Positions 29,517 through 49,526 are shown, counted from the stretch's first letter. The stretch is 64,000 bases of DNA from Naegleria gruberi (GCA_000004985.1 GG738847.1), one strand, 5' to 3'. Numbers and translations are program-made. The notes: generated by a model from the letters alone, not told the origin.

Positions 29517-32500
29517 ATGTCCACTCGCAAAAGTTGTAAAAGAGAATCATCATCTCTGATAATGATGATGATGGTGCTGATGGTGGTAGTGTTCATGTCA
29601 TGCTCGGTGTTGTTGGTTGAGGGACAAACGTGTGCAGCCAATAAGAAGTATCCGAATAGTTATACTCATTGTGTGGGATTGACTTGTGGAGGAACAACAC
29701 CAATGATCTTTGTTAATAATCCAACATCACCAACCAGATCGGTTAGGAGAGAATTATCTCATCATCATCTTTAACTAGTAGTAGTAGTAGCACTTCAGAA
29801 GAAATTGTATTGAGAGGAGATTTGCCTCTCACTGTTGGTTGTACATGTGATCCACTGGTTGATATTGGTGCTCGTTTTACTCAGTGTGATAATTCAACAA
29901 ATACTAAATCAGCCTTCTACTTTTACAAACCACCTGCTGTATGTACAGGATATGAATTACCAACTCCAATCAGTGGTCTTCCATGTGATTTGGTTTGTGA
30001 GGAAGGCACTCGTTTGGATGTTAACTCAAAGAAGTGTTTACATTGTGAGCCTGGTAGTTATGCCCACAGTGGTGAATTGTCCATGATTAGTTGGACTTCT
30101 ACTGGTCTCGATCTTGATACCAATACTGGTATGTTTTTAATAATTTAATATTTAATCTAATTCTCTCTCTATTAATTCATTCATTCTGATCCTCGATCCT
30201 CTATCAAATCCTACGATTGTTATTATCTGATCTTACATTATTATTAATTAATATTTACAGAATCACCTGTTTTCCCACCACAAATGCGTTCCTATTGCAG
30301 TAATTATGCTTGGAGTTCAGCATGTTCACCTTGGCAACCAAGAGGTGATTATGTTGACAGTGGTAATAATAGAGGAAAAAACTTTGCAAAGAATTACCTT
30401 GAATTTTATGTTGAAATTTCACAACTTGCTGTTGATAGTGGAAATGCTAGTGTTTCTTTTGAATATCAAGTTGATGCTGAACAATTTTATGACTTTTTCT
30501 TTTTCGGAATTGATAGTACTCAAGATTTCCTCATGAGAGCAGATCAACAACTTACTTGGAAGAAGCAAACATTTAAATTCAATAAGGCTGGTTTCCACAC
30601 CTTGATTTGGGCCTATATTAAGGACAGTTCAAAGGATGAAGGTGAAGATAGAGCCAAGGTTAGAAATATTGTTATCAATGGTTCTGTTGATAAGGAAGTT
30701 GTTCTCAGATGTGAACTTTGTCCTAAGGGATCTGCTTCTGATGGTACTGTTCCATGTCAAAAGTGTCAACCAGGTACCTATGCTGATGAAGAAGGTTTGG
30801 ATCAATGTAAGCCATGTGCTCCTGGAAAGACTTCTTTCTCTGGATCTACAGATTGTTTCTTGGCTGATATTCCTTGTACTTCAGCTGATTATTCATACAG
30901 ATATGGATCCACTTGTGAAAATGATTTGAGAACTATGGAATATTTCTGGGTTTCACCAATCATTTGTAATGCATCCAATCCAGATAGCGCTCCATTACCA
31001 GCATTATCTAATACTAAATGCTCTGAAACACTCAAATGTCCACTCGGTATGAAAAAGTCCATTCAAGGAAATATTCAATCCTGTGTTTATTGTGAACCTG
31101 GTTCATTCAATGATCATGATAATCGTAATAATAATGAAACTGAAACTGATACTCAACTCAGATCAATTCAACATGCTGAAACTGAATGTGAAGCTTGTCA
31201 AACCAATGAAGCTTCCAAATATAAGGTTGTTCATATTTATGATGTTGTAGCTGGAATTTCATCACCATATGTTTCCAGTTGTACTGGTGAATGTATGTCT
31301 GCTATTGGTTGGAGAGATCTTGGTGCTGTTGGTTTGGATTCGGGTACTAGTAATGGTAAATCAGTTGCCAAAGTCTTGTTCCAAAACATGCCAACTGTAA
31401 GTATGGAAGAAGATGTTACTCCATATTTCAGTACCAGATTGTTCCTTTCATGCCCAGCTAACAGTGGAAATAGAGTTGACTTTTTAATTGATGGTGTTGT
31501 AAGAAAGTCAGTCTTTTGTGGAGGATGCATTCCATTCGAACAAGATGAAAATGAAATTGAGGAAGATTGGATGACTGTCGATGTTCCATTAACCCTTACT
31601 GAACGTAAGAAGCTTCCATTGACCTTTGAAGTTTACTTTGTTTCTGTTAATCCTGTTTCTACTGTTAATGATACTTACAATTGTGATCGTGCTGTTATTT
31701 CAAAGGTTTCACTCTATGGTGTTGCCAATCAAGGAGGTGCTGTAGTTTGTAAGACATGTGCAGGTGGTAAATATCCATTGTTGGATGAATGTAAGGATTG
31801 TGCTGCTGGTTCTTATTCACCTCCTGGTAGTGCCAGTTGTGGTATTTGTAATGCTAATCAATTCAGTTATAATGCTAGTGATCGTTGTTATGATTGTGGT
31901 GAAGGACAAACTAGTGCTAAGGGAAGTCAAGCTTGTTCATGGAAAGGCCAAGTTTGTGAAAATACTCATAATGTTGGTGGTGCTGACAAGACATTCAATA
32001 TGAATAAGTTTAGTGAATTATTAGGTGGAGCCAGATTCTATAATCCAACCATCCTTGATGCCTCATTCTACTTTGACATTTGTAAGAATCCATCCTCTGT
32101 TAATCTTCGTTCAAATATTTTCAATTTCCAAGAACAGGAATTATATGATCTCATTAAGCCATTGAATAGCATGATGGAAGTTGGTGAATATGCCAGTGTT
32201 TGTCCAGCCAATTCCTATGCTTGTATCAGATATAGAAATGGTCAAGTTGTTGATTTTGGTAACTCTCTTTCCATGACTCCAATTCTCGATAGCCACAATG
32301 TTGGTGTCAATATCACTTTGAGAAATTATCAAAATGTATGCTATAACAATGTTACTGGAAGAGATGGTCCATCAATGATTAGTGTTATTGCCATGTGTAC
32401 TACAGACAGTGCCACTGAATCTTCTCTTGCTGACTCTCCAAGAATTGTTGCCACTGACGACAGCAGATGTAACTTCCGTTTGGAAACATTGTCCATTCAT

Positions 32501-32839
32501 GGTTGTCCATTGTGTACTGAAAGCAATTTCAATCGTTTGGAAGGTGAATGTTCCTCTGAAACAAAGACCAGAACAATCAGATATGCCAGAAAGGAAGGAT
32601 TGGTCAATAAGTGTGCCAGAGGAGATGGTGATTTGACCAATGTTGTCAAGACTGAAGCTTGTGAGCCACTCTCAATTACTGCTCCATATTGGATTGTTGC
32701 CATTGTATTGGTTGTTGGTTTGGTCATTGTCATTGGTATTTCAATTGTTGCTGTCTTTTTATACTTTAAATACAGATCTATGGCTAAGAAGTATTACAGT
32801 CAAATAAGAGATGATGATACAACTAATCAAACTCTTTAG
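29517..32839 (+). CDS. Type I transmembrane glycoprotein with a signal peptide, several ephrin-receptor-like / TNFR-type cysteine-rich repeats, one TM and a short cytoplasmic tail. The architecture is reminiscent of ELAPOR/KIAA1324. Exons are 29517-29774 (?), about 29775/29810-30128 and 30261-32839.
   Basis: Signal peptide MMMMVLMVVVFMSCSVLLVEG. Repeats CELCPKGSASDGTVPCQKCQPGTYADEEGLDQCKPCAPGKTSFSGSTDC and CKTCAGGKYPLLDECKDCAAGSYSPPGSASCGICNANQFSYNASDRCYDCGEGQTSAKGSQAC. TM VAIVLVVGLVIVIGISIVAVFLYF. Intron GTATGT(30129)...AG(30260) is verified in frame. The exon 1/2 junction is unresolved, with a frame change near 29740-29810. Confidence 0.6.
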
Positions 32840-32946
32840 TGTGAACATTAACTTGTGAATAAATGTAATTAATCAATAATGGAACCTAGTGATCAATCCG
32901 ATTTGACAAGTTTCAAATATTATTCGAAATTAAAATTTAAAAAAAA

Positions 32947-34255
32947 ATGGCAACCTCATCACTCACAACAACCTTGACCAATTCACGTCCCTTCCTCATC
33001 GATGATTTATTAGAAGTAAACATTTACAAGGGCACTTCATTCCCAGTCACTGATTTGGATGGAACTAGTGATCCATACATTATTGTAAACAAAACTTCAA
33101 GTCAAAAGAATCAACCTGTTAAAACAAGTGTCATTCACAATTGTTTAAATCCCGTTTGGAATGAACAAGCAAAACTTGTTTATTCTACTATTAACAAATT
33201 TGATGGATTAAAATTTCAAGTTATGGATAAAGATCATTTGACTAGAGATGTAAGTTGTGTTTTTTTTATTGGAAACTTTAATTTGTGAATATATTATTAT
33301 TTATTTATTTGAATATATATAGGATAATGTTGGTGAGATTTGTATTGATATGAAATCTCTTCCTATCAATGTTTCTAAAAAAGATGTTAGAGCAATTAGT
33401 TCTAAATATTCCAATTCGAAACTTGAATTCGAATATCAATTGACTAGAATGGATCCATTGTTTTTGAATGCAACGATTGATCCATCTACTCAATTACAAT
33501 CATTTTCAAATTCAAAACTTGAAGGTTTGAATTTATTTATTCCAAAATCTTGGAAATTCATTGATTATCATCACGAATCACCACATTACAAAATTGGTAA
33601 TTTAGATTCGAATAGTGTTGTTACATTCTTGACTGAAAAGGGAAAGAATGATGAAACTGATGTTCACATTGATGTTTGTGAACATGTTAGTTTACAAATT
33701 GTAAACAGTTTGGAAAAATTCCATTCACGTGTTGAATTATTTGATTCCATTTATAGAAATCATTTACAACATTACAATGAAGCTGATTTTGAATTGGTTA
33801 ATGAAGAAGAAGGAAATCACAAATCAGATTATTTTGCAATTGGAAAATTATTCGAAAAGGAAGATAATTTACAATATTATCAATCTCAATATGTTTTTAG
33901 AAAGAAATCTAAAGGTTCAGTTAATGAATCAGGACTCAAGATTCGTTATTTCCTTGTTGGAGAAAGTAGTGGAGATATGGATAAGGTTTTAATTGTTAAA
34001 TTTGCAACTGAACATTCATTATTCGAAACCTTGTCAATGCATCAAACTAATCCTTCTTTAGTTTCTAAAAAGACAGATACCACTGGTTCTCATCTTCCTC
34101 TCATTGCTCAACCTTCTTTCGTATTGAAAAATTTACCACCAATTCCATTCTTGAAACAAGAAGAAACTACTCAATCAGAAACTTCACAAGTTTTGAATTA
34201 TAGAAAGATTGTTAGTGAATTACAACAAGTACTAATCAAATTAAGTTTCGATTAG
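32947..34255 (+). CDS. N-terminal C2-domain protein of about 412 aa in two exons (32947-33249 and 33323-34255, 73-nt GTAAGT...AG intron, phase 0).
   Basis: C2 signature TDLDGTSDPYIIVNK...NCLNPVWNEQAKLVYS...FQVMDKDHLTRD|DNVGEICIDM. Both exon frames verified. Confidence 0.7.
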
Positions 34256-38940: not shown

Positions 38941-39387
38941 ATGATGCTCAATACACAAGTGAGTGATGAAATTATTCAATCCTATGAAGAGATGAGACTT
39001 GGAAAGGGAAAATTCAAAGAAAGCAAGTTCATCGTCCTTCACATGGAAGAAGGTTCAATTCAAATTGATCAAAATTTAACTCGCTTACAAAATCTTGATG
39101 AATTGGTTGACAAATTGCCAGCAAAAAATTCTCGTTTTATTTGTTATCATTTGAGTTTTGAAATGCCATCCCAAACAAGTGGATTAAGAGAAGGAAAGAG
39201 AACGAAAATGGTATTTATTACTTGGTGTCCAAACGAGGTAAATGTCAAGGAAAAGTTTAAGGTTGCTGCCACTTGTAAAACTGTCAAAGCAAAGCTTAAT
39301 GGAATGTCAATGAGTTATTATGCTGGTTGTAAAGGAGAACTTGATGAAAAGCAACTCATTGAAAAGTGTATTACATTTATCAAGTAG
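38941..39387 (+). CDS. Cofilin/ADF (actin-depolymerising factor homology domain) protein of 148 aa.
   Basis: VSDEIIQSYEEMRLGK...KMVFITWCPNEVNVKEKFKVAATCKTVKAKLNGM matches the cofilin N-terminal and ADF-H core patterns (compare VSDGVIKVFNDMKVRK...[33 protein letters not shown]). Confidence 0.7.
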   Translation: MMLNTQVSDEIIQSYEEMRLGKGKFKESKFIVLHMEEGSIQIDQNLTRLQNLDELVDKLPAKNSRFICYHLSFEMPSQTSGLREGKRTKMVFITWCPNEVNVKEKFKVAATCKTVKAKLNGMSMSYYAGCKGELDEKQLIEKCITFIK

Positions 39388-39540: not shown

Positions 39541-40898
39541 TTATTCTGATGTCATATTAATTGATGACAAGATTGAACTATCCAAGCTCATTGATAGCTG
39601 CTGATCACTTCCTTCACCAGTTGGACTTGTTGGTGATTTCAACTTTTTAACATCCAACATTTCATTGGAAGAAGTTGGCGAGAGAACCAAATCTTGAGTT
39701 GAATTTCTCGATTTTCCATTTGAAGAAGATAATGAAACATTCGAAGCTTGTGGAATAATCTTTTGATCAGAATCCATTCTAAACAACTTTTGTACCTCTC
39801 TCAATGGATTGTAAATTGAGAGAATCAATACTACAAACGCAATAATTCCAATATTGTAAAGCATGTGAAAGAAATTCATGAAATAATTCCAAGTTAAGGT
39901 GAGTGGAATGAAAACGAAACCAATAAATTGGAAAATCAATGAAATGGTCAATCCGTATTGAATAGCCATTGATTTTCTCAAGGCAACTTTCTTGAATTTG
40001 TAAGTTTTGATTTTTTCAACACTTTTTCCCTTAATTTCGGATGGAGAAACTCCACGAAGCATATTCTTGATTTTTTCCTTGCTTTCTTTCAAACTCTTGA
40101 TGAGTTTTCTGCCAATCACATTGAGGAAGATTGAAACGGAAACTGTTGAGATGAAAAATAAAAGAGCTGCGCTCAGGAAGAAACCCAATTGGAGATAGCT
40201 CAATAAATCTGGGTCAATATTGGCACGACCAGCTGCTAAACCTCCAAAAGCAATGGTAATGCAACAGAGGAGAACGAACAATCCACCCAAAATGATCAAG
40301 AAGGCAAATAATCCCTTTCTAACAATTTCGAATGCTCTTTCAGATAAAACACTGATAGAACGACAAGTTTCGGCACTATTTGCAAAGATTGTTAATAGGA
40401 ATTATATCAAAAGAAACTTACAAAATGTAACAAATATGAGCCATCAACACTACTTCAACATAAATTGCAATATTCACAAAACATCTGTCAAAAATCTTGA
40501 TAACAACACTTGCCACTTTTCCTTCATTTGGAACCATGTGTAATAGAGCCAGCTCACTTGAAATTCTAGTTAGCATATTGACAAACACCAAACTTTCCAG
40601 AACAAACAAAATAGCAAACAAAATGTGTTGATTTCTCTTCATGTTCTTTTGTTGCATCAAGTAACTGACAACTGACGCAATAAATAAACCACCAAATATC
40701 AAAACGAAAGGAGAAGTCAAAGATATAACAACAGTGTTGTAATCACCATAAATCGCGCTTGTTGTTGTAGAACTATTGGTAGAATTGACCAATTCAACAG
40801 CTGACAGTTGTCCCATCAATGGCAGTGAAACATCTTGTTGATCGATAACTAATGGACCCAACAGAAATTCTGATGGTAATTGGGAATGATATCTAGAC
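39541..40898 (-). CDS. Seven-transmembrane receptor-like protein with an S/T-rich cytoplasmic tail. Two exons (40898-40422 and 40375-39541, minus strand) split by a 46-nt GTAAGT...AAATAG intron.
   Basis: Seven hydrophobic helices: FVLIFGGLFIASVVSYLM, ILFAILFVLESLVFVNML, VNIAIYVEVVLMAHICYI, LIILGGLFVLLCCITIAFGG, LGFFLSAALLFFISTVSVSIFL, LTISLIFQFIGFVFIPLTL, IGIIAFVVLILSIY. The splice joins ...AHICYIF|AETCRS... in frame. Confidence 0.5.
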
Positions 40899-42108
40899 AT
40901 TCTTTTTGATTTTGTTTCTTTCGTATTGCATCTCTCGCTATTCGATAGGTATTGGTGGATGTGATAATAGTTTAGGATGGACCTGTCAGTTATAGATGAT
41001 TTCAATAAATTGGGACATTTCATCAACCATCTTTCTGAACGCTTTGGAAAAACGACATGTTTTTGATGGGACAAAATTGACAAGTTGACACATAGCAAGT
41101 ATGATAACAAATTAGTGATTTGCCTAGTTGAGTTTTAGAGGATGTAGTGAGCTTTATTGGATTGTTGCATTTTGATTCTGGAATCCAGAAGAATCTTGTT
41201 TCGATTTTTCCTTAAGAAAAAAAGGTTTCGTCGCTTCATTTACAGGATGTGTATCCGAAAGGTTGAGTTGTAAAAGAACATGTTTTGTTGAAGGATGATT
41301 TCTCAAGTTTCATTCACTAGTCCAATATGAAATCTTTGAAACTGTCATCTGTAGGTCAGTTTCTTAATGTTTATTCAAACCTTTCCAATGAAAAAAATGT
41401 AAAAATCAACAATTTAAACACATGTTATTTTTGATTAATAGTGACATTGCCTGTTATTGTGGAATTGGTAGAATAATCCAATAATTGAAGTGTTGATTTA
41501 GAAGTTGTAAACTAAAGTACAACAATTCACACCCATCACAAACTACTGCATTCTTCCATTACAATCATTGATGAGTGGAAAGTTGTACATTTCTGAGTGT
41601 TTGATTTTTCAATAATTGTAAAACAATAATGTTATTGGATAACACAACAATTTCTCCTCTTGATTCATTCTCATGCAGTATTGCACTAAGAGAGGTAAAA
41701 CTTTTCAAACTTCACTTGTTTGTGTTGAATGAATTGTAGATATCGAACAATGAAATTAATTTTTTTAAAACTGTCTCTCTGTGTAATCCATTTCCAATAC
41801 TGAAAACTAATTATTGAATTATCAATAATTCATCATCTCCAAAGAAAATGTGATTGACTTGAGTCATTGTTATAACCAACAATTAAAAGAGACGTTTCAA
41901 ACCATTGAAGTGAGGGTGTTAAATGTTGAATTTCAACGAAGAAAGGGGAGACACTTCACCAATCAACAAAATTGCTGTAAAGTTGACAACAAGTGTCTAC
42001 TGTCATCTTATCACAAACTAGAAAAAAAAAACTCAATACTTGATCAACGCAAATCTTCACACAGTTCACATAAATTGATTGCAATATTTTGTAACCCATC
42101 ATCACACA

Positions 42109-43926
42109 ATGAGTAACAATAATTCTGAAGATATTGCTGCTTCAAGTTTTGCCAATAGAAAGGCTCTATTCCAAAACCTACAGAGCAATCCAAGTAATAG
42201 TAGCACAACTACCAAATCTACTACTACTCAATCTTCCACTTCCACTACTACCACTGGTAAATTACCTGCATTCAATCCGATCAATAAATCATCGACACCA
42301 AGCAACTCGTCATCTACTACCTCCAGCACAACTCCCGCCAATTCTAATACAGTAGTCACCAACAACACAAGTGGCAGTGGAGGAGGTTCGAGCCAATTTA
42401 GGGAAGCTTTGAAAGGATTGAGTGGTGCAGCTGGAGGTAATCCACTGTTTGCTGGTGGTTTTGTGAAGAGTACAACAACAACTGCAACCACCAGTTTGCC
42501 AACTTATAAACCATCAACACCGAGAGGTAATAATAATAACAGTGGTGTTGTAAATTCGGTGAGTGAAAAGAAGGAACCACCTAAATTACCACCACGTAGA
42601 GGATCTGGTATTGGATCAAACAATACAAGCACTGCTACACTCACATCAGGTGGTAGTAATAATAATAATAATAATTTGCAAACAGCAACAACAACAACAA
42701 CTAGTCAACCTCCTCCTGCTTTGCCTCCTAGAAAACTTTCACAAAAGAAAGATGAACCACCACAAATACCAATTGTTACTAAGCAACAAGTTGTCGTAGA
42801 GGAAGAACCAATTGTTGAGGAGGAAATTCATCACGAAGAAGAAGAGGAAGACGAGGAAGAAGTTATTCAAGTACGTGATAGTATTCGACATGAAAGTGAT
42901 GACGAGGATGAGTCAGACTCGGAGGAAAGTTCTACACCTTCTACACCAAGTGGAACATCATCTTCTACTACATCAATTAACAATAACAATAATTCACTTC
43001 CACAAACATTGACCATTCAGAGTACTCCACCTCCTCTACCAAAGAAAACACCAAGTCAAGAAACACCAATTGTTGATAGTTATTCCATCACATTACATAA
43101 TGCTACACAATCTTTGAACAACAACAAATCAAATCAGAATGATGACGAAGATCCAACAGCAAATCTACCAAAGGGATGGACAGCCTACTTTGACCCTGGT
43201 CGTCAGGCCCACTATTACCACAATGAATTTACTGGAAAAACAACATGGAAGAAGCCTCCATCCGATGTTATTGTCTCCTCTTCATCATCTACTTCTGCAA
43301 CAACAACAAAGGAAGAAGAACAATTAGAAGATGGATGGACAGCCTATTTCGACTCTGGTAGACAAGCCTACTACTATCATCACGAACAGACTGGTAAAAC
43401 TACATGGAAGAAACCAATCAAGCAACAACAACAACCAAAGGTTTCTCCTCGCAAGCAAACTCCACCTCCAACTAGTACTACCACTTCTGCTGTACAACAA
43501 CAACAAACTTCTCCACAGAAACAAACACCTCCAGTTGTCCCAACTAGAAAACTCTCACAAAAGAAGGATGATGTTGCTCAGGAATCAACAACGCAACAAC
43601 CTCCTTCTATTCCTCCTGTAAAACCAACTCGTCCTGCTACCAAGAGTATTATTGAGAATAATCCTCCTCCAGTTGTTGTTGTCGAGAGCAAACTTCCATC
43701 ATTACCACCTGCAAAACCAATTAGAAAGGAAACAAATTCTCCAACAACAACTCAAGGAGATTCATCTGCTCCACCTCTTCCTCAGGAAAACCACTCAACA
43801 AGGCAACACCCCCACCACAAATTCCAACAGGAAAACCATCAAGAAATCCTTTGGAATCTTCTGCAAAGAATGATCATCGTCAATCGACAGTCATTAGGGA
43901 AGATGTCATGTTGCAACCACAATTAA
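42109..43926 (+). CDS. Proline-rich protein with two WW domains. It is very probably the N-terminal part of the downstream myosin gene, separated from it by a 1-nt frameshift at about 43785-43790.
   Basis: WW domains LPKGWTAYFDPGRQAHYYHNEFTGKTTWKKP and LEDGWTAYFDSGRQAYYYHHEQTGKTTWKKP. Flanking repeats PPALPPRKLSQKKDEPPQ and PPVVPTRKLSQKKDDVAQ. The ORF ends 75 nt after the start of the myosin frame. Confidence 0.7.
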   Translation: MSNNNSEDIAASSFANRKALFQNLQSNPSNSSTTTKSTTTQSSTSTTTTGKLPAFNPINKSSTPSNSSSTTSSTTPANSNTVVTNNTSGSGGGSSQFREALKGLSGAAGGNPLFAGGFVKSTTTTATTSLPTYKPSTPRGNNNNSGVVNSVSEKKEPPKLPPRRGSGIGSNNTSTATLTSGGSNNNNNNLQTATTTTTSQPPPALPPRKLSQKKDEPPQIPIVTKQQVVVEEEPIVEEEIHHEEEEEDEEEVIQVRDSIRHESDDEDESDSEESSTPSTPSGTSSSTTSINNNNNSLPQTLTIQSTPPPLPKKTPSQETPIVDSYSITLHNATQSLNNNKSNQNDDEDPTANLPKGWTAYFDPGRQAHYYHNEFTGKTTWKKPPSDVIVSSSSSTSATTTKEEEQLEDGWTAYFDSGRQAYYYHHEQTGKTTWKKPIKQQQQPKVSPRKQTPPPTSTTTSAVQQQQTSPQKQTPPVVPTRKLSQKKDDVAQESTTQQPPSIPPVKPTRPATKSIIENNPPPVVVVESKLPSLPPAKPIRKETNSPTTTQGDSSAPPLPQENHSTRQHPHHKFQQENHQEILWNLLQRMIIVNRQSLGKMSCCNHN

Positions 43927-46900
43927 TGCCATCTCTTCCAGATGAAGTTGGATTTTCTAGAAAGTCCATCTCACGTGATCGTTATCAACCAATCAACTCT
44001 GCATATCAACAAGATTTCCGTGTTCGTAGATTGGAAGATCGTGAAATGTGTGACGATTTAACATTGCTCCTTTCACAAAGTTCAATGAAATCAAAGAAAT
44101 CCGAGCAAATGGTGGTTCCACAAAAGACTGAAATTACAGAAATTGATTTGACCAACATTTTGGCCAATCGTTATTATCAAAATGAAATTTACACATGTGT
44201 TGGTCCTGCCATTCTCTCAATCAATCCATATAAGGCTGTAAAGGGTCTATACAGTAATGAAACAAAGGCTCTCTTCCACTCTCACATTCCATACGAGTTG
44301 GCTCCTCATATTTATTCACTTGCTGAGGATGCTTATCGTACATTGTTGGAACATGCCACTGCTAACAAGCCAACCTCCACTCATGTCACAAGAGCTAGAC
44401 CTGCCATTACTGCTGTGTCATCTTCTTCTGCTCACTCTAAAAAGATGCCACCTCCTCCACCTCCTGGTAAACCAATCAATAAGGAAGCTGATTTGGATGA
44501 TGATACATTCATTATTAATGATTTCAGTATTTCAGATGGTATTGGTGTTGGACAAGCAATTATTATTCAAGGTGAATCTGGTTCTGGTAAGACACTAGCC
44601 AGCAGAATTATCATGGAATACTTGGCTGCTGTTTCAATTTCTGGATTGGAAACTCAAAGAATCAAGGATTCAATTCTTCAAAGTAATCCACTCTTGGAAA
44701 GTTTTGGTAATGCCAAGACTCTTCGTAACAACAACTCTTCTCGTTTCGGTAAATTTACCAACTTGTATTTTAACTTTAAGGGCCAACTCATGGGAGGTGA
44801 GCTCACAACCATTCTCCTCGAAAAGGCCAGAGTTGTCAAGAGAAGACTTGGAGAACGTAATTTCCATATCTTTTACCAATTGTTATCTGATGATTATATT
44901 AGAAAACAACTCAATCTTGGTTTCCCAGAAGAGTACAATTACCTCAACAATAATGTTATCAATATTAACGAAGTTGATGACAAGTCAGAATTTGAAACAA
45001 CCAAACGTGCCATGGATTTATTGGACATGAGTGTTCCAGAACAAATGGCTGTTTTCAAGATTGTTGCTGCCATTTTGCAATTGGGTAATATTACCTTCAC
45101 AGCCATTGAAGATCCTGAGGAGAGAAAGAGAAGAAACATCGCTCCTGGTGTTGAAGCTTGTGATGTTTCTAATGAAGCTTCATTGAAATTGGTTGCCAAC
45201 ACTCTCCAAATTGATGCTGAATTCTTGAGAAGATCAATGATTATCAGAGTTATCAAGACTGTTGGTTCTCCAATGCCAATTGAACAAACTCAATCAGTGG
45301 AACAAGCTGAATTCAACAGAGATACTCTCGCCAAGAATATCTATGAACGTTTGTTCTTGTGGTTGGTCAAGAGAGTCAACAGAGCATTGAGAGTTCCTGA
45401 CTATGAAGATTTTGTTGCCAAGAAGAATTCTGAAACTTACTACAATATTGGTATCTTGGATATTTATGGTTTTGAAATCTATGACAAGAATATTGGAACA
45501 GGAAAGATTGTTGATCAAGATGAAGCATCCAATCAAGGCAAACTCAAGAACGGCTTTGAACAATTGTGTATCAACTTTGTCAATGAAAAGATTCAAAGTG
45601 GTGTTCAAAGATCCATCAAGAAGGAACAAGAAGACATTCAAAAGGAAATTTATGGAGATGACTTTAAGCCAACTCTTGCCTCTACTCAAGAGAGAAACAA
45701 GAGATTCGACTCTGATGCTGCTATTCAAATGATTGCTGGCAAGCCAATCAGTGTCTTTTCATTGTTGGATGAAGAATCCATGTTCCCTAATGGTAATGAT
45801 GTTAACTATGTTCAAAAGATGAAGACCAACATCAAACATCCATACTTTAAGATTCCAAGAATTGCAGAACCAACAGAATTTGAATTGGAACACTTTGCAG
45901 CTCTCGTCAAGTATAACACTGCAGATGGATGGGTTGACAAAAATCGTGACACTTTACTCGCTGAAATGCTCTACACTATGCAAAATACAAAGGACCACTT
46001 GCTTATGGCTCTCTTCCCTAAGAATGAACAAGCTAATGATGTTCTCTCTAAAAAGCCAGCCAATGCAGGAACCAAACTTCAACAAACAACTGCTGAAAAG
46101 TTCTTGAGAGATGTCAGCAAGTTGATGAATCAATTGAGTTCATGCAGCTTGAAACATCACCACATTAGATGTATCATTCCAAACTATGAAGGAAGAGCTG
46201 ATGATTTCCAAAAGGACGTTGTTAATCACCAAGTTAGATATTTGGGTATTTTAGACACTGTCCTCTCGAGAAAAGCCGATGATTTGGGATCCAATGTGAC
46301 TGGTTACAGCATTAAGATTCCGTACGATACCTTCCTTGAAAGATACAAGCTTCTCTGTCCTGAAACATTCCCATATTGGGAAACTTTCATTACCAACAAG
46401 TATGGTCCTGTTGAGGAATTCACTATTGAACACAAGAAGGAAGCAGTCCATCAAATTTTGAGCCAAGAACATATTGGTATGACCAATCCACAAGATTTCT
46501 TCTTGGGTAGAGGTAATGTCTTGTTGGCCTCTCCAGTTCAACTCTTCCAATTGGATGAAATGATCAGAGAACAAAAACATGAAATGGCTAGAAAGATTCA
46601 AAACTCCTTCAGAAGATACAGAAAGAAGAGAGCTGGAAAGATGGAAGAAATGATGAAGAAGGCTATCAAGACAACTGAACCAACCAAGCAAAAGGAAGCT
46701 CCTGAAGAAATCAGAATTAGACATGACGGTTTCAGAACATCCAACTTTGGTGAAACAAAGAAACGTGTCTTGATCACTGGTAGTGACAGAAGAAATATTT
46801 TCCTCTTGGATACTACAAGCTCATCTTCAGAGTTTGAACAATTGAGAAAGATTGCCATTAGAGATATCAAGAAGATTTACATTTCACCATACTCTGATAA

Positions 46901-49526
46901 TTACATGATTTTCAAGTTGGACATGGATGAAGGTGATGAATTGGTAGAACTAGATAACAAGTGGGAATTTTTGGAAGAATTTAACAAGCTTATTGAATCA
47001 ACTGCCTCTAACTTTAAGGGTGAACATGTTCCAAGAGTTGAAGTTACCAAGGACATTAGTATCCTCAATCATCAAAAGGACAAGAACACTGGTACTCAAA
47101 ATTTATTGGTCAGATTTATTCCATCTGCCTACAATACCAAGAAGACTGTTACCACTGAATGCTATGCTGATGAATTTGATAATAGACTCTTCATTGTCAA
47201 CACCTTCACTCAAGCTGATATTTACAATCAAAGAAAGTTGAGAAGAAAGGCCTCACTCTATGCCAAGCAAGATCAAAACAGAGATTACTTGAGAATGCAA
47301 AACAGTGAATTGATGCAACTCTTAAAGAAGGATTATGATGACTCCAAAGTTCTATTCTCTGGTGTCGTTTCCAAGTATAACAAGAGATTCAAGAAGCAAG
47401 ACAGAATTTTCATGGTCACCGATAAGGCCATTTATAATATTGATCCAAGTGGTGGTTACCTCATCAATAGACGTGTTCCAATTGGCCAAGTAACCTCTGT
47501 CACTGTCTCACCTTACACTGATAACTTCTTTGTTGTTGATCATCCAGATCAAGATATTTTGAGTGAAAGTGCCAAGAAGACTGAAATTTTGGAATCCATT
47601 TTGGAAAGCTTCCAAAATGCTACCAATCAATTGTTACCGGTCAAGGTCACTACCAACTATTACATTAACTTGGCCAAGAAGAATACCAAGCGTGTCGCTA
47701 TTTCATGGATTATTGAACCAGAAAATCAAACACAATTCTCAGTTTCTACACTTGTTCCAAATACTGCTGGTGGAGCTGATGTTCATGTTGTTTCTGAAGT
47801 TGATAACGATAATGACAAGTCAATGAATGATTTGGCTGTTAGACAATCCTTCCAACGTAGATCAGTTCGTGGTAAGATGGTTAAGAATGGTGATATGGAT
47901 GAGGTTGATTTGAATGACGTCTTTGGTGGTTTGAAGGTTCGTAGAAAGGACTCTCTCCTCGTCTGGTTCCAAGGTGATTATTTGAACTTTAAGGACAATC
48001 CAAAATTCATCGAAATGGTCAAGAAGCACGATCCAGAATGGAATGGACAAGTTCTCTTCTCTAACCTAATGACTAAAGTCAATAAGAGATTCAGAACTCA
48101 ACCTAGAAAGGTTGTAGTTACACCAAATTACATTTACACTCTCGATGATGAAAAGTTACACTTTAACAGAATTACTCCAATCAAGGATTTGAGTGGTATT
48201 TCTCTCAGTACTATGAGAGATGCCTTCTTTGTTGTCCACTGCCCAACTGATCACGATTTATTTGCATCTTGTAAGAAGAAGACTGAATTAGTTTCTGTTA
48301 TTTGTGATGCCTTCAAAGATAAGACTGGTATGGATCTCCCAGTTCACGTAGAAGATAAATTCGTCTACAAACCAAGTACAGATGTTAAAGGTGTTAAAAC
48401 AATTGAATTTAGACATGATCCAACCACCAAGGTTCCAATCCTTACTCCAACCAAGTTGGGTTGTCTCATTCAAGTTAACAATTCTGATCCTGAAAAGGTT
48501 AAACAAAACTTACCAACTGCCAAACAACAAAAACCAGCTGCAACTCCACAACTCAAGTTATATGAAGGTTCTGATGAAAGAGGTATTCAAGATAAGATGG
48601 ATTCCATCTATACAGGAAGAAAGGGACGTAATAGAAGATCTCTCCTTCGTGAATATCTTGGTGACTATTTGAGATTGGAAGGTACACAAAGAATGAAGAA
48701 GGTTTTCGATAGAAATGGTGATACTGAATTAATCTTCTCTGGACAAGTTCTCAAATATAACAAGAACTTTAAGAAGCAACATCGTTTATTGGTTGTAACA
48801 GACAAGAATGTTTACAATATTGATGAACAAGAATTCAAGATTAAGAGAAAGATTCCACTTGAAGAAATTACAGGTGTCTCTGTTTCTCCATTCGACGACA
48901 ATGTATTTGTTATGCACTGTCCAACTAGTGGTGACTATTTGTTGGAAGATGAAAAGAAGACTGAAATTATTTCTGCTCTCCAAAATGCAAGACTCAGACA
49001 CTTGAAACAACCATTGAAGATTAATGTTGATGACCAATTTAACTTTGCTCCAAACTCTTCATCTACCATGCCAGTTACTTTCATTAGTGATGATCACTGC
49101 AAGGATACTTGGGCTGAGAATAGAGCTAATGCATTGGTTGTTCACGTAAAGAGACAAGAACCTGGTGTAGTATTGGAAGCTGCCTATCTCTATTTGAATG
49201 AAGAATCTAAACCAATTGAAGTTAAATCAACACCAATTCTTATCAAATTGAAGAAGAGATGGACCTACAAGTTGCAAATTCGTTTCTATGTCAATGAATA
49301 CTTGGCAGGATGTGAATTCCACGAAAAGATTGATACTGTGTCTTCGAGACTTGAATTTGTATCCAAAGTTGTTGAACTGGAACCAAAAGAAGAACGTTAT
49401 GTTATTACCCTTCCTGAAAGAAAGGTAATTTATTCATTGCTTTCCAAAACCAGAGTCAAGTGCAAGCTAGTTGATCCAAGTGGTAAAGTTCTCATGGCTG
49501 TTCGTTTTGTTTATGATATTCAATAA
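43851..49526 (+). CDS. Unconventional myosin heavy chain: motor domain, an IQ motif and three tandem myosin-I-type TH1 (tail homology 1) domains. The reading frame is continuous upstream to 43725 and merges with the WW-domain ORF if one A is added to the A-run near 43787.
   Basis: P-loop GESGSGKTLASRII, switch I NNNSSRFGKF, switch II LDIYGFE, IQ ARKIQNSFRRYRKKRAG. Three TH1 repeats: ...FSGVVSKYNKRFKKQDRIFMVTDKAIYNIDP...VSPYTDNFFVVDHP, ...FSNLMTKVNKRFRTQPRKVVVTPNYIYTLDD...AFFVVHCP, ...FSGQVLKYNKNFKKQHRLLVVTDKNVYNIDE...VSPFDDNVFVMHCP. Confidence 0.85.
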   Translation: MESSAKNDHRQSTVIREDVMLQPQLMPSLPDEVGFSRKSISRDRYQPINSAYQQDFRVRRLEDREMCDDLTLLLSQSSMKSKKSEQMVVPQKTEITEIDLTNILANRYYQNEIYTCVGPAILSINPYKAVKGLYSNETKALFHSHIPYELAPHIYSLAEDAYRTLLEHATANKPTSTHVTRARPAITAVSSSSAHSKKMPPPPPPGKPINKEADLDDDTFIINDFSISDGIGVGQAIIIQGESGSGKTLASRIIMEYLAAVSISGLETQRIKDSILQSNPLLESFGNAKTLRNNNSSRFGKFTNLYFNFKGQLMGGELTTILLEKARVVKRRLGERNFHIFYQLLSDDYIRKQLNLGFPEEYNYLNNNVININEVDDKSEFETTKRAMDLLDMSVPEQMAVFKIVAAILQLGNITFTAIEDPEERKRRNIAPGVEACDVSNEASLKLVANTLQIDAEFLRRSMIIRVIKTVGSPMPIEQTQSVEQAEFNRDTLAKNIYERLFLWLVKRVNRALRVPDYEDFVAKKNSETYYNIGILDIYGFEIYDKNIGTGKIVDQDEASNQGKLKNGFEQLCINFVNEKIQSGVQRSIKKEQEDIQKEIYGDDFKPTLASTQERNKRFDSDAAIQMIAGKPISVFSLLDEESMFPNGNDVNYVQKMKTNIKHPYFKIPRIAEPTEFELEHFAALVKYNTADGWVDKNRDTLLAEMLYTMQNTKDHLLMALFPKNEQANDVLSKKPANAGTKLQQTTAEKFLRDVSKLMNQLSSCSLKHHHIRCIIPNYEGRADDFQKDVVNHQVRYLGILDTVLSRKADDLGSNVTGYSIKIPYDTFLERYKLLCPETFPYWETFITNKYGPVEEFTIEHKKEAVHQILSQEHIGMTNPQDFFLGRGNVLLASPVQLFQLDEMIREQKHEMARKIQNSFRRYRKKRAGKMEEMMKKAIKTTEPTKQKEAPEEIRIRHDGFRTSNFGETKKRVLITGSDRRNIFLLDTTSSSSEFEQLRKIAIRDIKKIYISPYSDNYMIFKLDMDEGDELVELDNKWEFLEEFNKLIESTASNFKGEHVPRVEVTKDISILNHQKDKNTGTQNLLVRFIPSAYNTKKTVTTECYADEFDNRLFIVNTFTQADIYNQRKLRRKASLYAKQDQNRDYLRMQNSELMQLLKKDYDDSKVLFSGVVSKYNKRFKKQDRIFMVTDKAIYNIDPSGGYLINRRVPIGQVTSVTVSPYTDNFFVVDHPDQDILSESAKKTEILESILESFQNATNQLLPVKVTTNYYINLAKKNTKRVAISWIIEPENQTQFSVSTLVPNTAGGADVHVVSEVDNDNDKSMNDLAVRQSFQRRSVRGKMVKNGDMDEVDLNDVFGGLKVRRKDSLLVWFQGDYLNFKDNPKFIEMVKKHDPEWNGQVLFSNLMTKVNKRFRTQPRKVVVTPNYIYTLDDEKLHFNRITPIKDLSGISLSTMRDAFFVVHCPTDHDLFASCKKKTELVSVICDAFKDKTGMDLPVHVEDKFVYKPSTDVKGVKTIEFRHDPTTKVPILTPTKLGCLIQVNNSDPEKVKQNLPTAKQQKPAATPQLKLYEGSDERGIQDKMDSIYTGRKGRNRRSLLREYLGDYLRLEGTQRMKKVFDRNGDTELIFSGQVLKYNKNFKKQHRLLVVTDKNVYNIDEQEFKIKRKIPLEEITGVSVSPFDDNVFVMHCPTSGDYLLEDEKKTEIISALQNARLRHLKQPLKINVDDQFNFAPNSSSTMPVTFISDDHCKDTWAENRANALVVHVKRQEPGVVLEAAYLYLNEESKPIEVKSTPILIKLKKRWTYKLQIRFYVNEYLAGCEFHEKIDTVSSRLEFVSKVVELEPKEERYVITLPERKVIYSLLSKTRVKCKLVDPSGKVLMAVRFVYDIQ

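What the first reader, a model, noticed from the sequence alone, without database searches (positions are those of the whole stretch)
42109..49526. WW-WW-myosin-3xTH1 gene, split by a single-base frameshift in an A-run
An upstream ORF encodes two tandem WW domains flanked by PPxLPPRK proline motifs. It overlaps the start of the myosin frame by 75 nt. The myosin frame stays open back to 43725 and reads ...KPLNKATPPPQIPTGKPSRNP... contiguous with the WW protein's ...SAPPLPQE. No GT...AG intron can join the two frames. A 1-nt length difference in the run caggAAAAcc (about 43785-43790) would fuse them into a protein of about 2480 aa. The tail has three tandem myosin-I TH1 domains instead of one. 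An N-terminal WW-domain extension on a myosin with three TH1 domains is an unusual architecture. The frameshift is either an assembly error, a pseudogenising mutation or a programmed +1/-1 event.
Basis: seen in the sequence. Interest (0 to 1): 0.7.

Follow-up and report, generated by a model that had tools for sequence, protein, structure and literature searches.

The report
Naegleria WW-myosin-I gene with frameshift
This is the Naegleria gruberi copy of an already described amoeba-specific class-I myosin (two WW domains, a motor and repeated TH1 membrane-binding domains), broken in this assembly by one missing base in a run of A's, so it is a gene-model problem and not new biology.

Summary
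ORF1 (42109-43926, frame 1) encodes a proline-rich region with two WW domains. The myosin frame (frame 0) is open from 43725 to 49526. Adding one A to the run at 43787-43790 gives one 2472-aa protein.

The window is Naegleria gruberi. The reference protein D2V147 (1826 aa) starts at an internal Met and lacks the WW part. The N. fowleri ortholog is one uninterrupted 7629-nt ORF (2542 aa) in three assemblies. It aligns to frame 1 up to PPLP and to frame 0 from KP..PPPxIPxxKP, which places the shift at the A-run. Frame 0 has conserved sequence upstream of its first ATG, so it cannot start on its own.

This is one gene with a 1-nt indel. A consensus error seems most likely, and a recent or allelic mutation in strain NEG-M is the next option. 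I found no independent N. gruberi data to decide between them. An intron or programmed frameshifting is poorly supported.

The architecture is already published (Kollmar and Mühlhausen 2017, supplement).

One addition: the last ~120 aa form a strongly conserved RhoGDI-like beta-sandwich, which I did not find mentioned in the papers I searched.

The parts
42109..43788 (+). 5' part of the coding sequence (frame 1). It encodes a low-complexity, proline-rich N-terminal extension with PxxPx[K/R] motifs.
   Evidence: ORF list. The N-terminus MSNNNSEDIAASSFANRKALFQ aligns to the N. fowleri start MSDKDNN..SSTSFANRKALFQ. Motif scan.
43165..43257 (+). WW domain 1
   Evidence: Pfam PF00397, best stretch at residues 363-393 of ORF1. 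Sequence GWTAYFDPGRQAHYYHNEFTGKTTWKKP.
43324..43416 (+). WW domain 2
   Evidence: Second Pfam WW stretch. Sequence GWTAYFDSGRQAYYYHHEQTGKTTWKKP.
43787..43790 (+). A4 run, the inferred site of the 1-nt indel. Here the frame-1 codon GAA and the frame-0 codon AAA share base 43788.
   Evidence: PPLPQE is frame 1 at 43771-43788 and KPLNKA is frame 0 at 43788-43805. tblastn HSPs of the N. fowleri protein switch frame at 43806-43818. The MAFFT alignment is collinear across the site.
43788..44126 (+). Frame-0 linker between the shift and the motor. It is conserved with N. fowleri and Willaertia (TPPPQIPTGKPSR, STVIREDV, YQQDFRVRRLEDR) and has no ATG before 43908.
44127..46590 (+). Myosin motor domain. 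It has a P-loop GESGSGKT (44571), switch I NNNSSRFGK (44727) and switch II DIYGFE (45459). A PPPPPPGKP insert lies at 44448-44474.
   Evidence: Pfam PF00063, E=3e-163. Motif scan.
46596..46631 (+). Single IQ-like motif (IQNSFRRYRKKR)
   Evidence: Regex match only. Pfam IQ did not score.
46788..47054 (+). Partial TH1 unit (TH1a), matching profile positions 63-153 of 185
   Evidence: Pfam PF06017, 42.3 bits against a cutoff of 31.1.
47241..47705 (+). TH1 unit b
   Evidence: Pfam PF06017, E=1e-29. It is 36-37% identical to units c and d.
47940..48428 (+). TH1 unit c
   Evidence: Pfam PF06017, E=4.5e-35.
48627..49154 (+). TH1 unit d, with a PH_3 hit inside it
   Evidence: Pfam PF06017, E=7e-40, and PH_3, E=8e-6.
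49155..49523 (+). C-terminal RhoGDI-like beta-sandwich domain, the most conserved part of the protein family
   Evidence: It is 61-89% identical across paralogs that are 36-40% identical overall. The AF2 model has pLDDT 85.7. The top 31 Foldseek PDB hits are all RhoGDI, with E about 5e-9 and TM about 0.7. Pfam Rho_GDI is sub-threshold in 5 of 10 members.
49524..49526 (+). Stop codon

Best explanation
Positions 42109-49526 are one gene, the Naegleria gruberi ortholog of a heterolobosean class-1 myosin. Its layout is a roughly 700-aa proline-rich N-terminal extension with two WW domains, then a motor, one IQ-like motif, four TH1 units (one partial and three complete), and a C-terminal RhoGDI-like beta-sandwich.

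In this assembly the reading frame is broken by a 1-nt length difference in the A-run at 43787-43790 (A4 where A5 is needed). The most likely cause is an error in the consensus sequence, and the reference gene model (D2V147, 1826 aa, starting at an internal Met) is truncated because of it.

Shown here: the domain content, the exact place where homology changes frame, the intact state in N. fowleri and Willaertia, and the RhoGDI-like fold of the tail end.

Inferred: that the indel is an artefact and not a real mutation. The function is also inferred. The TH1 units would give multivalent binding to acidic membrane lipids. The WW domains and PxxPxK/R motifs would recruit or self-bind adaptor proteins. 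The RhoGDI-like pocket would bind a lipidated cargo.
For: - The window is N. gruberi. P0008 (D2V147) is 100% identical to the window ORF.
- N. fowleri P0001 (2542 aa) is encoded by one 7629-nt ORF. It is seen in three independent assemblies and has 2 WW, a motor and 4 TH1 stretches.
- The Willaertia ortholog is also one intronless ORF, with a proline-rich N-terminal extension joined to the motor.
- tblastn of the N. fowleri protein matches frame 1 for 42115-43818 and frame 0 for 43806-49520.
- The junction alignment PPLP|KP..PPPxIPxxKP is collinear.
- Frame 0 holds conserved peptides at 43806-43907, but its first ATG is at 43908.
- Both halves are otherwise free of stop codons.
- The upstream neighbour gene is shared with N. 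fowleri.
- Published description: 700-aa N-terminal tails with two WW domains and tandem TH1 duplications in heterolobosean class-1 myosins, with N. gruberi as representative (PMC5583752 supplement). The repaired N. gruberi extension is 696 aa.
Against: - No independent N. gruberi reads, cDNA or second assembly could be reached. Exact look-ups of ORF1, ORF2 and the fused protein found nothing. A metagenome scan for the 4A or 5A junction found nothing.
- The truncated reference protein suggests the public assembly carries the same shift, so it is not an independent check.
- A4 is a short homopolymer, and such runs are not a common site of consensus error in Sanger data (my own knowledge, not tested here).
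- NEG-M is a long-cultured laboratory strain reported to be heterozygous (my own knowledge, not checked here), so a real allelic frameshift is plausible.
Confidence: 0.6

Rival explanations
1. The frameshift is real in strain NEG-M, either as a recent laboratory mutation or as one allele of a heterozygous locus. The gene is then being pseudogenised or split. It would yield a 605-aa WW protein with a 45-aa out-of-frame tail. At best it would also yield an N-terminally truncated myosin started at Met 43908 or 44046.
For: - The reference protein set carries only the truncated 1826-aa myosin.
- No fused N. gruberi protein exists in a collection of 15 billion sequences.
- A4 is not a typical error hotspot (my own knowledge).
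- Both halves are still intact, which fits a very recent event.
Against: - Everything else in 7.4 kb is open and under visible constraint, with 75% identity to N. fowleri over 1936 aligned residues.
- The conserved frame-0 sequence lies upstream of any ATG.
- The orthologs are intact.
- The published N. gruberi architecture is the fused one.
Confidence: 0.3
2. A spliceosomal intron joins the frames. The best-looking candidate is 43646 (GTATTA) to 43785 (CCTCTTCCTCAG), 140 nt.
For: There are 205 formal GT..AG pairs that keep the frame open. This candidate has a pyrimidine-rich CAG acceptor.
Against: - The candidate has GC 0.41, the same as the coding sequence around it. A real intron in a neighbouring gene (30129-30260, GTATGT..TTTACAG) has GC 0.24.
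- The candidate stays open in frame 1 and encodes the same proline motifs, including the PPLP block that aligns to N. fowleri.
- The N. fowleri and Willaertia orthologs are intronless.
Confidence: 0.03
3. Programmed -1 ribosomal frameshifting, or transcriptional slippage, at GGAAAAC makes the full-length protein from the shifted genome.
For: The required shift is -1 and the site holds a short A-run.
Against: - There is no X XXY YYZ heptamer in the frame-1 phase (read from the sequence).
- The first 20 nt downstream are unpaired, and the 110-nt downstream fold is not exceptional (z=-1.5, with 15 of 200 shuffles folding as well).
- A4 is too short for known transcriptional slippage (my own knowledge).
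- The orthologs need no recoding.
Confidence: 0.02
4. Two separate genes are the natural state in N. gruberi: a WW adaptor protein and a myosin.
For: The Willaertia ortholog has no WW domains, so the WW part is evolutionarily separable.
Against: - The N-terminal extension is fused to the motor in both other species, including Willaertia.
- The ORFs overlap by 76 nt.
- The frame-0 conserved region has no start codon.
- The 45 codons of frame 1 after the shift match nothing in N. fowleri.
Confidence: 0.03

Closest known systems
Heterolobosean class-1 myosins with an N-terminal WW-containing extension and tandem TH1 domains (Kollmar and Mühlhausen 2017, BMC Evol Biol 17:211, Additional file 1 near Fig. 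S5). The N. fowleri protein XP_044568826 / A0A6A5C0Z3 belongs to this group.
   Same: - A roughly 700-aa N-terminal tail with two WW domains (696 aa here after repair).
- A class-1-like motor and repeated TH1 domains.
- 71-76% identity to the N. fowleri protein, with the same domain order and a shared upstream neighbour gene.
   Different: The window copy is interrupted by a 1-nt frameshift. The public N. gruberi model (D2V147) is truncated to 1826 aa.
Canonical class I myosins (for example Myo1e/f and the Dictyostelium and Acanthamoeba long-tailed myosin I)
   Same: They share a motor with intact P-loop and switch motifs, an IQ-like motif and a TH1 lipid-binding tail. All the best non-family hits are class I.
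   Different: - Four TH1 units instead of one.
- No TH2/SH3. Instead there is an N-terminal WW and proline-rich extension and a C-terminal RhoGDI-like domain.
- The TEDS position is Met (Thr in N. fowleri).
- There is a poly-proline insert before the P-loop.
Kinetoplastid Myo1 (TbMyo1) and class IV myosins, which also carry WW domains
   Same: They combine a WW domain with a myosin motor (PMC2924389; PMC3942036).
   Different: In TbMyo1 a single WW sits in the tail, next to a TH1 split by a FYVE domain. Class IV has a MyTH4 tail. Here two WW domains sit about 300 aa upstream of the motor.
RhoGDI / PDE6-delta / UNC119 lipid-binding beta-sandwiches
   Same: The C-terminal 120 aa are predicted to adopt this fold. 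The top 31 PDB matches are RhoGDI, followed by PDE6D and UNC119. The weak sequence similarity is collinear.
   Different: - Only 18-19% identity.
- Below the Pfam gathering score.
- No N-terminal regulatory arm.
- Fused to a myosin tail.
- The family is tiny, with 23 representatives among 1.84 billion proteins.

Membership tests
Class I myosin | Myosin motor domain with intact nucleotide-binding motifs | tested here: met
   Pfam PF00063, E=3e-163. GESGSGKT, NNNSSRFGK and DIYGFE are present.
Class I myosin | TH1 (PF06017) tail domain | tested here: met
   Four stretches, all above the 31.1-bit cutoff.
Class I myosin | Motor groups with class 1 in a phylogeny | not tested
   I built no tree. All the best hits outside the family are class I myosins. 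The literature assigns the heterolobosean WW and multi-TH1 myosins to class 1.
Class I myosin | TEDS-rule residue (T/E/D/S) 16 residues before DALAK | tested here: not met
   The residue is Met in N. gruberi, Thr in N. fowleri and Asn in Willaertia. This feature is typical of the class but does not strictly define it.
Heterolobosean WW-class-1 myosin (Kollmar and Mühlhausen 2017) | A roughly 700-aa N-terminal extension with two WW domains, continuous with the motor | tested here: inconclusive
   Met only after adding one A at 43787-43790. The extension is then 696 aa with 2 WW domains. As assembled, the frames are split.
Heterolobosean WW-class-1 myosin (Kollmar and Mühlhausen 2017) | Tandemly duplicated TH1 domains | tested here: met
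   The units are 33-37% identical to each other.
WW domain (PF00397) | Two conserved Trp residues spaced about 22 residues apart, with a C-terminal Pro, and a score above the Pfam cutoff | tested here: met
   68.3 bits against a cutoff of 26.9, in two stretches. Both copies fit GW..(22)..W..P.
RhoGDI (PF02115) | Immunoglobulin-like beta-sandwich of the RhoGDI C-domain | tested here: met
   AF2 pLDDT 85.7. Foldseek PDB E about 5e-9 and TM 0.68-0.74 to RhoGDI1/2.
RhoGDI (PF02115) | Sequence score above the Pfam gathering threshold | tested here: not met
   17.4 bits against a cutoff of 26.5. Five of 10 family members hit, with best E=1.3e-4. A PDB profile search found nothing.
RhoGDI (PF02115) | N-terminal regulatory arm that contacts the GTPase switch regions | tested here: not met
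   The domain starts directly after TH1d at 49155. Only Pfam profile positions 91-191 are matched.
RhoGDI (PF02115) | Hydrophobic pocket that binds a prenyl group | not testable with these tools
Programmed -1 ribosomal frameshift site | X XXY YYZ slippery heptamer in the zero frame | tested here: not met
   The frame-1 codons are CAG GAA AAC CAC, which contain no such heptamer.
Programmed -1 ribosomal frameshift site | Stable stimulatory RNA structure 5-9 nt downstream | tested here: not met
   The first 20 nt are unpaired and z=-1.5 against shuffles.
Spliceosomal intron | GT..AG borders with non-coding, AT-rich content typical of this genome | tested here: not met
   The borders exist formally. 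The content has GC 0.41, against 0.24 for a real neighbouring intron, and it is open and homologous in frame 1.

The most novel reading that the evidence does not exclude
The strongly conserved C-terminal RhoGDI-like beta-sandwich may be a lipid-binding cargo module that I did not find described in the papers I searched. It is 61-89% identical across paralogs whose overall identity is below 40%. It occurs in only about two dozen sequence clusters worldwide, and it is also attached to RGS and RING-TH1 proteins. If it binds lipid, this family of four-TH1 myosins could directly hold prenylated (or otherwise lipidated) small GTPases while sitting on the membrane.

A much less likely novel reading, roughly 2%, is that the A4 frameshift is genuine and is decoded by -1 recoding.
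Probability: 0.3. Interest if true: 0.5.

Novelty: already known. Interest (0 to 1): 0.2.

Why it matters
The main use is for annotation. The public N. gruberi myosin model (D2V147 / XP_002682373) starts at an internal Met. It lacks about 650 residues, including both WW domains and the proline-rich motifs. I could not find ORF1 as an annotated protein. Anyone using the N. gruberi proteome for cytoskeleton work or proteomics would miss the real N-terminus.

The frameshift itself is only worth a PCR check.

The biologically more interesting point is the RhoGDI-like end domain. It suggests a testable cargo-binding mechanism for this heterolobosean myosin family. That family includes a protein of the pathogen N. 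fowleri.

Tried and rejected
- Homolog search with the full fused protein. Low-complexity words swamped the candidate list, and it missed even the identical N. gruberi protein. Only the N. fowleri hit was useful.
- Homolog search with the WW-to-motor junction segment. It returned nothing, not even N. fowleri, so it gives no information on how ORF1 is annotated.
- Exact look-ups of a neighbouring ORF, of P0008, of ORF1, of ORF2 from ATG 43908, and of the fused protein. None is on record, so no second N. gruberi assembly or transcript could be reached.
- Metagenome DNA scan for the junction with A4 or A5. No match.
- Metagenome loci found with the C-terminal profile. Only two came back (L004, L005). 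L004 has only about 830 nt upstream of the match and L005 is a 1-kb contig, so neither reaches the N-terminus.
- Intron reading. Rejected on composition, coding content and the intronless orthologs.
- Programmed frameshift reading. Rejected for lack of a slippery heptamer and of a downstream structure.
- Sequence-profile search of the PDB with the C-terminal domain. It found nothing. Only fold comparison and sub-threshold Pfam hits link the domain to RhoGDI.
- Literature search by accession numbers. No papers.

Full report
**1. What is in the sequence**

The ORF scan shows a 615-codon ORF at 42079-43926 in frame 1, whose first ATG is at 42109. It also shows an 1891-codon ORF at 43851-49526 in frame 0. 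Three-frame translation shows that frame 0 is already open from 43725, after a stop at 43722-43724. The two ORFs overlap by 76 nt.

Pfam finds two WW stretches in ORF1 (E=5.5e-19). In the frame-0 product it finds Myosin_head (E=3e-163), Myosin_TH1 (E=4e-111, four stretches) and PH_3.

CAGGAAAACC lies at 43783-43792, so the A-run is 43787-43790. Adding one A gives a single open product of 2472 aa from the ATG.

**2. Whose gene this is**

The frame-0 ORF is 100% identical to Naegleria gruberi 'myosin' D2V147 / XP_002682373 (P0008, 1826 aa). That model begins at an internal Met (MCDDL, 44046) and has no WW part.

The next best hit is N. fowleri P0001 (2542 aa; 71% identity to the fused query and 76% to the myosin part). 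P0001 carries 2 WW, a motor and 4 TH1 stretches. Its gene is exactly 7629 nt, so it is one intronless ORF. It occurs in three independent assemblies: the NCBI genome, an ENA strain with 2543 aa, and a Logan run.

Willaertia magna P0009 (2121 aa) is also one intronless ORF. It has a proline-rich N-terminal extension continuous with the motor. Neither the protein nor the 22-kb locus contains WW domains.

Orthology is backed by a shared upstream neighbour gene (window 40417-40778 against N. fowleri L002 146-509).

**3. Where the frame changes**

tblastn of the N. fowleri protein matches frame 1 for residues 6-653 (42115-43818) and frame 0 for residues 628-2541 (43806-49520).

In the three-species alignment, N. 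gruberi '..SSAPPLPQ-EKPLNKA-TPPPQIPTGKP..' lines up with N. fowleri '..SVPPPLPSVGAKPSIGANRSPPPSVPSNKP..'. PPLPQE is frame 1 (43771-43788) and KPLNKA is frame 0 (43788-43805). The shift is therefore pinned to within two or three codons of the A-run. The A5 repair also recreates the conserved Lys-Pro.

Frame 0 contains conserved peptides upstream of its first ATG at 43908. These are TPPPQIPTGKPSR at 43806-43844 and STVIREDV at 43884-43907. In N. fowleri that Met position is Ile. The myosin frame therefore cannot be a self-standing gene with its conserved N-terminus. It must be, or until very recently was, read through from ORF1.

**4. Alternatives for joining the frames**

The best-looking candidate is 43646 GTATTA to 43785 CCTCTTCCTCAG. 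Three things count against it:
- Its GC is 0.41, like the coding sequence around it. A genuine intron in a neighbouring gene (30129-30260, GTATGT..TTTACAG) has GC 0.24.
- It is open in frame 1 and encodes the PPLP block that aligns to N. fowleri.
- The orthologs have no intron.

A programmed -1 frameshift is also unsupported. The frame-1 codons CAG GAA AAC CAC hold no X XXY YYZ heptamer. The downstream 110 nt fold no better than shuffles (z=-1.5), and the first 20 nt are unpaired. The orthologs need no recoding.

**5. Error or real mutation?**

I could not reach independent N. gruberi data:
- Exact look-ups of ORF1, ORF2 and the fused protein failed.
- The encoding-contig index does not hold the N. 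gruberi record.
- A metagenome scan for the A4 or A5 junction found nothing.
- The last homolog search returned nothing.

Both halves are otherwise intact over 7.4 kb and visibly constrained. The indel is therefore either an artefact of the consensus or very recent or allelic.

I weight these at about 0.6 and 0.3. My reasons are that the published description of the family uses N. gruberi as its representative, with a '700 aa-long N-terminal tail containing two WW domains', and that the repaired extension is 696 aa. This weighting is a judgement, not a measurement.

**6. Anatomy, corrected**

Running Pfam on pieces of the tail gives four TH1 units:
- a partial one at 46788-47054 (profile positions 63-153, 42 bits)
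- 47241-47705
- 47940-48428
- 48627-49154

The three complete units are 33-37% identical to each other. All orthologs and paralogs tested, including Acrasis, give four stretches. The four-unit tail is therefore old within Heterolobosea, whereas the WW pair is seen only in the two Naegleria orthologs.

The motor has normal P-loop, switch I and switch II motifs. It has a poly-proline insert before the P-loop. The TEDS position is Met, against Thr in N. fowleri.

The N-terminal extension holds six PxxPx[K/R] motifs and two PPLP motifs, and no PPxY.

**7.

The last ~120 residues (49155-49523) are the most conserved part of the family. They are 61-89% identical across paralogs that are otherwise 36-40% identical.

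Evidence linking this domain to RhoGDI:
- Pfam gives a sub-threshold Rho_GDI hit (E=0.0036, with 5 of 10 members hitting).
- An AlphaFold2 model built on a 10-sequence alignment is confident (pLDDT 85.7) and all-beta.
- The top 31 Foldseek PDB hits are all RhoGDI C-domains (E about 5e-9, TM about 0.7), followed by PDE6-delta and UNC119.
- hhalign against human RhoGDI1 is weak but collinear (E=0.002).
- A PDB sequence-profile search finds nothing.

An exhaustive profile search finds only 23 representatives in 1.84 billion proteins. Among them are an RGS protein and a RING-TH1 protein. The domain lacks the RhoGDI regulatory arm.

I therefore call it RhoGDI-like in fold, and not a member of PF02115.

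**8. How it probably works (inference)**

- The four TH1 units are PH-like binders of acidic lipids in class I myosins, so they would give multivalent membrane attachment.
- The RhoGDI-like sandwich could hold a lipid anchor of a cargo such as a prenylated GTPase.
- The N-terminal WW pair and the many PxxPxK/R and PPLP motifs could recruit SH3 or WW partners, or fold back on each other.

None of this is tested.

**9. Comparison with what is known, and verdict**

The WW-plus-tandem-TH1 architecture of heterolobosean class-1 myosins is stated in Kollmar and Mühlhausen 2017 (PMC5583752, Additional file 1). WW domains also occur in kinetoplastid Myo1 tails (PMC2924389) and in class IV myosins (PMC3942036). 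The N. fowleri ortholog is already annotated full length.

The finding is real and correctly read. It amounts to a frameshifted and truncated gene model of a known protein type, so interest is low.

The RhoGDI-like tail domain is the only element that may be new. 'RhoGDI' does not occur in the main text or the held supplements of that 2017 paper. A full-text search of the paper library listed no paper tying a RhoGDI domain to a myosin.

Noticed in passing
window 49155-49523: The C-terminal ~120 aa of the myosin fold as a RhoGDI/PDE6-delta-like beta-sandwich and are the most conserved part of the family. The profile finds only 23 representatives in 1.84 billion proteins. Among them are an RGS protein (P0141) and a RING+TH1 protein (P0142).
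   Followed up: yes
window 44046 (start of the reference model) and 42109-43926: The public N. gruberi protein D2V147 / XP_002682373 starts at the internal Met of MCDDL. It omits conserved upstream sequence. ORF1 (the WW part) is not found as an exact protein in the 15-billion-sequence collection.
   Followed up: partly
window 44448-44474: A poly-proline insert (PPPPPPGKP) lies inside the motor domain, shortly before the P-loop. It is also present in N. fowleri as PPPPP. It may be a further SH3, WW or profilin-type ligand.
   Followed up: no
window 45270-45335 (loop before DTLAK): The TEDS-rule position 16 residues before DTLAK is Met in N. gruberi, Thr in N. fowleri and Asn in Willaertia. Paralogs have Ser or Glu. 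Regulation by heavy-chain phosphorylation may therefore differ between orthologs.
   Followed up: partly
L003 8001-14366 (Willaertia magna): The Willaertia ortholog keeps a roughly 400-aa proline-rich N-terminal extension, but neither the gene nor the 22-kb locus has WW domains. The WW pair was therefore gained in Naegleria or lost in Willaertia.
   Followed up: partly
window 30001-34051 against L002 14486-19277: The genes that lie downstream of the myosin in N. fowleri (a C2-domain protein and an ELAPOR1/ephrin-receptor-like protein) lie about 8-12 kb upstream of it in N. gruberi, which indicates a local rearrangement. The immediate upstream neighbour (40417-40778) is conserved.
   Followed up: no
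window 30129-30260: This is a clear spliceosomal intron in the ELAPOR1-like neighbour gene (GTATGT...TTTACAG, 132 nt, GC 0.24). The gap between homologous blocks lies at the same place in N. fowleri. It is a useful local reference for what an intron looks like in this genome.
   Followed up: partly
window 38956-39387: This stretch is similar to the cofilin/ADF gene that lies upstream of the Willaertia myosin ortholog (L003 4070-4486). It is a second trace of conserved gene neighbourhood.
   Followed up: no
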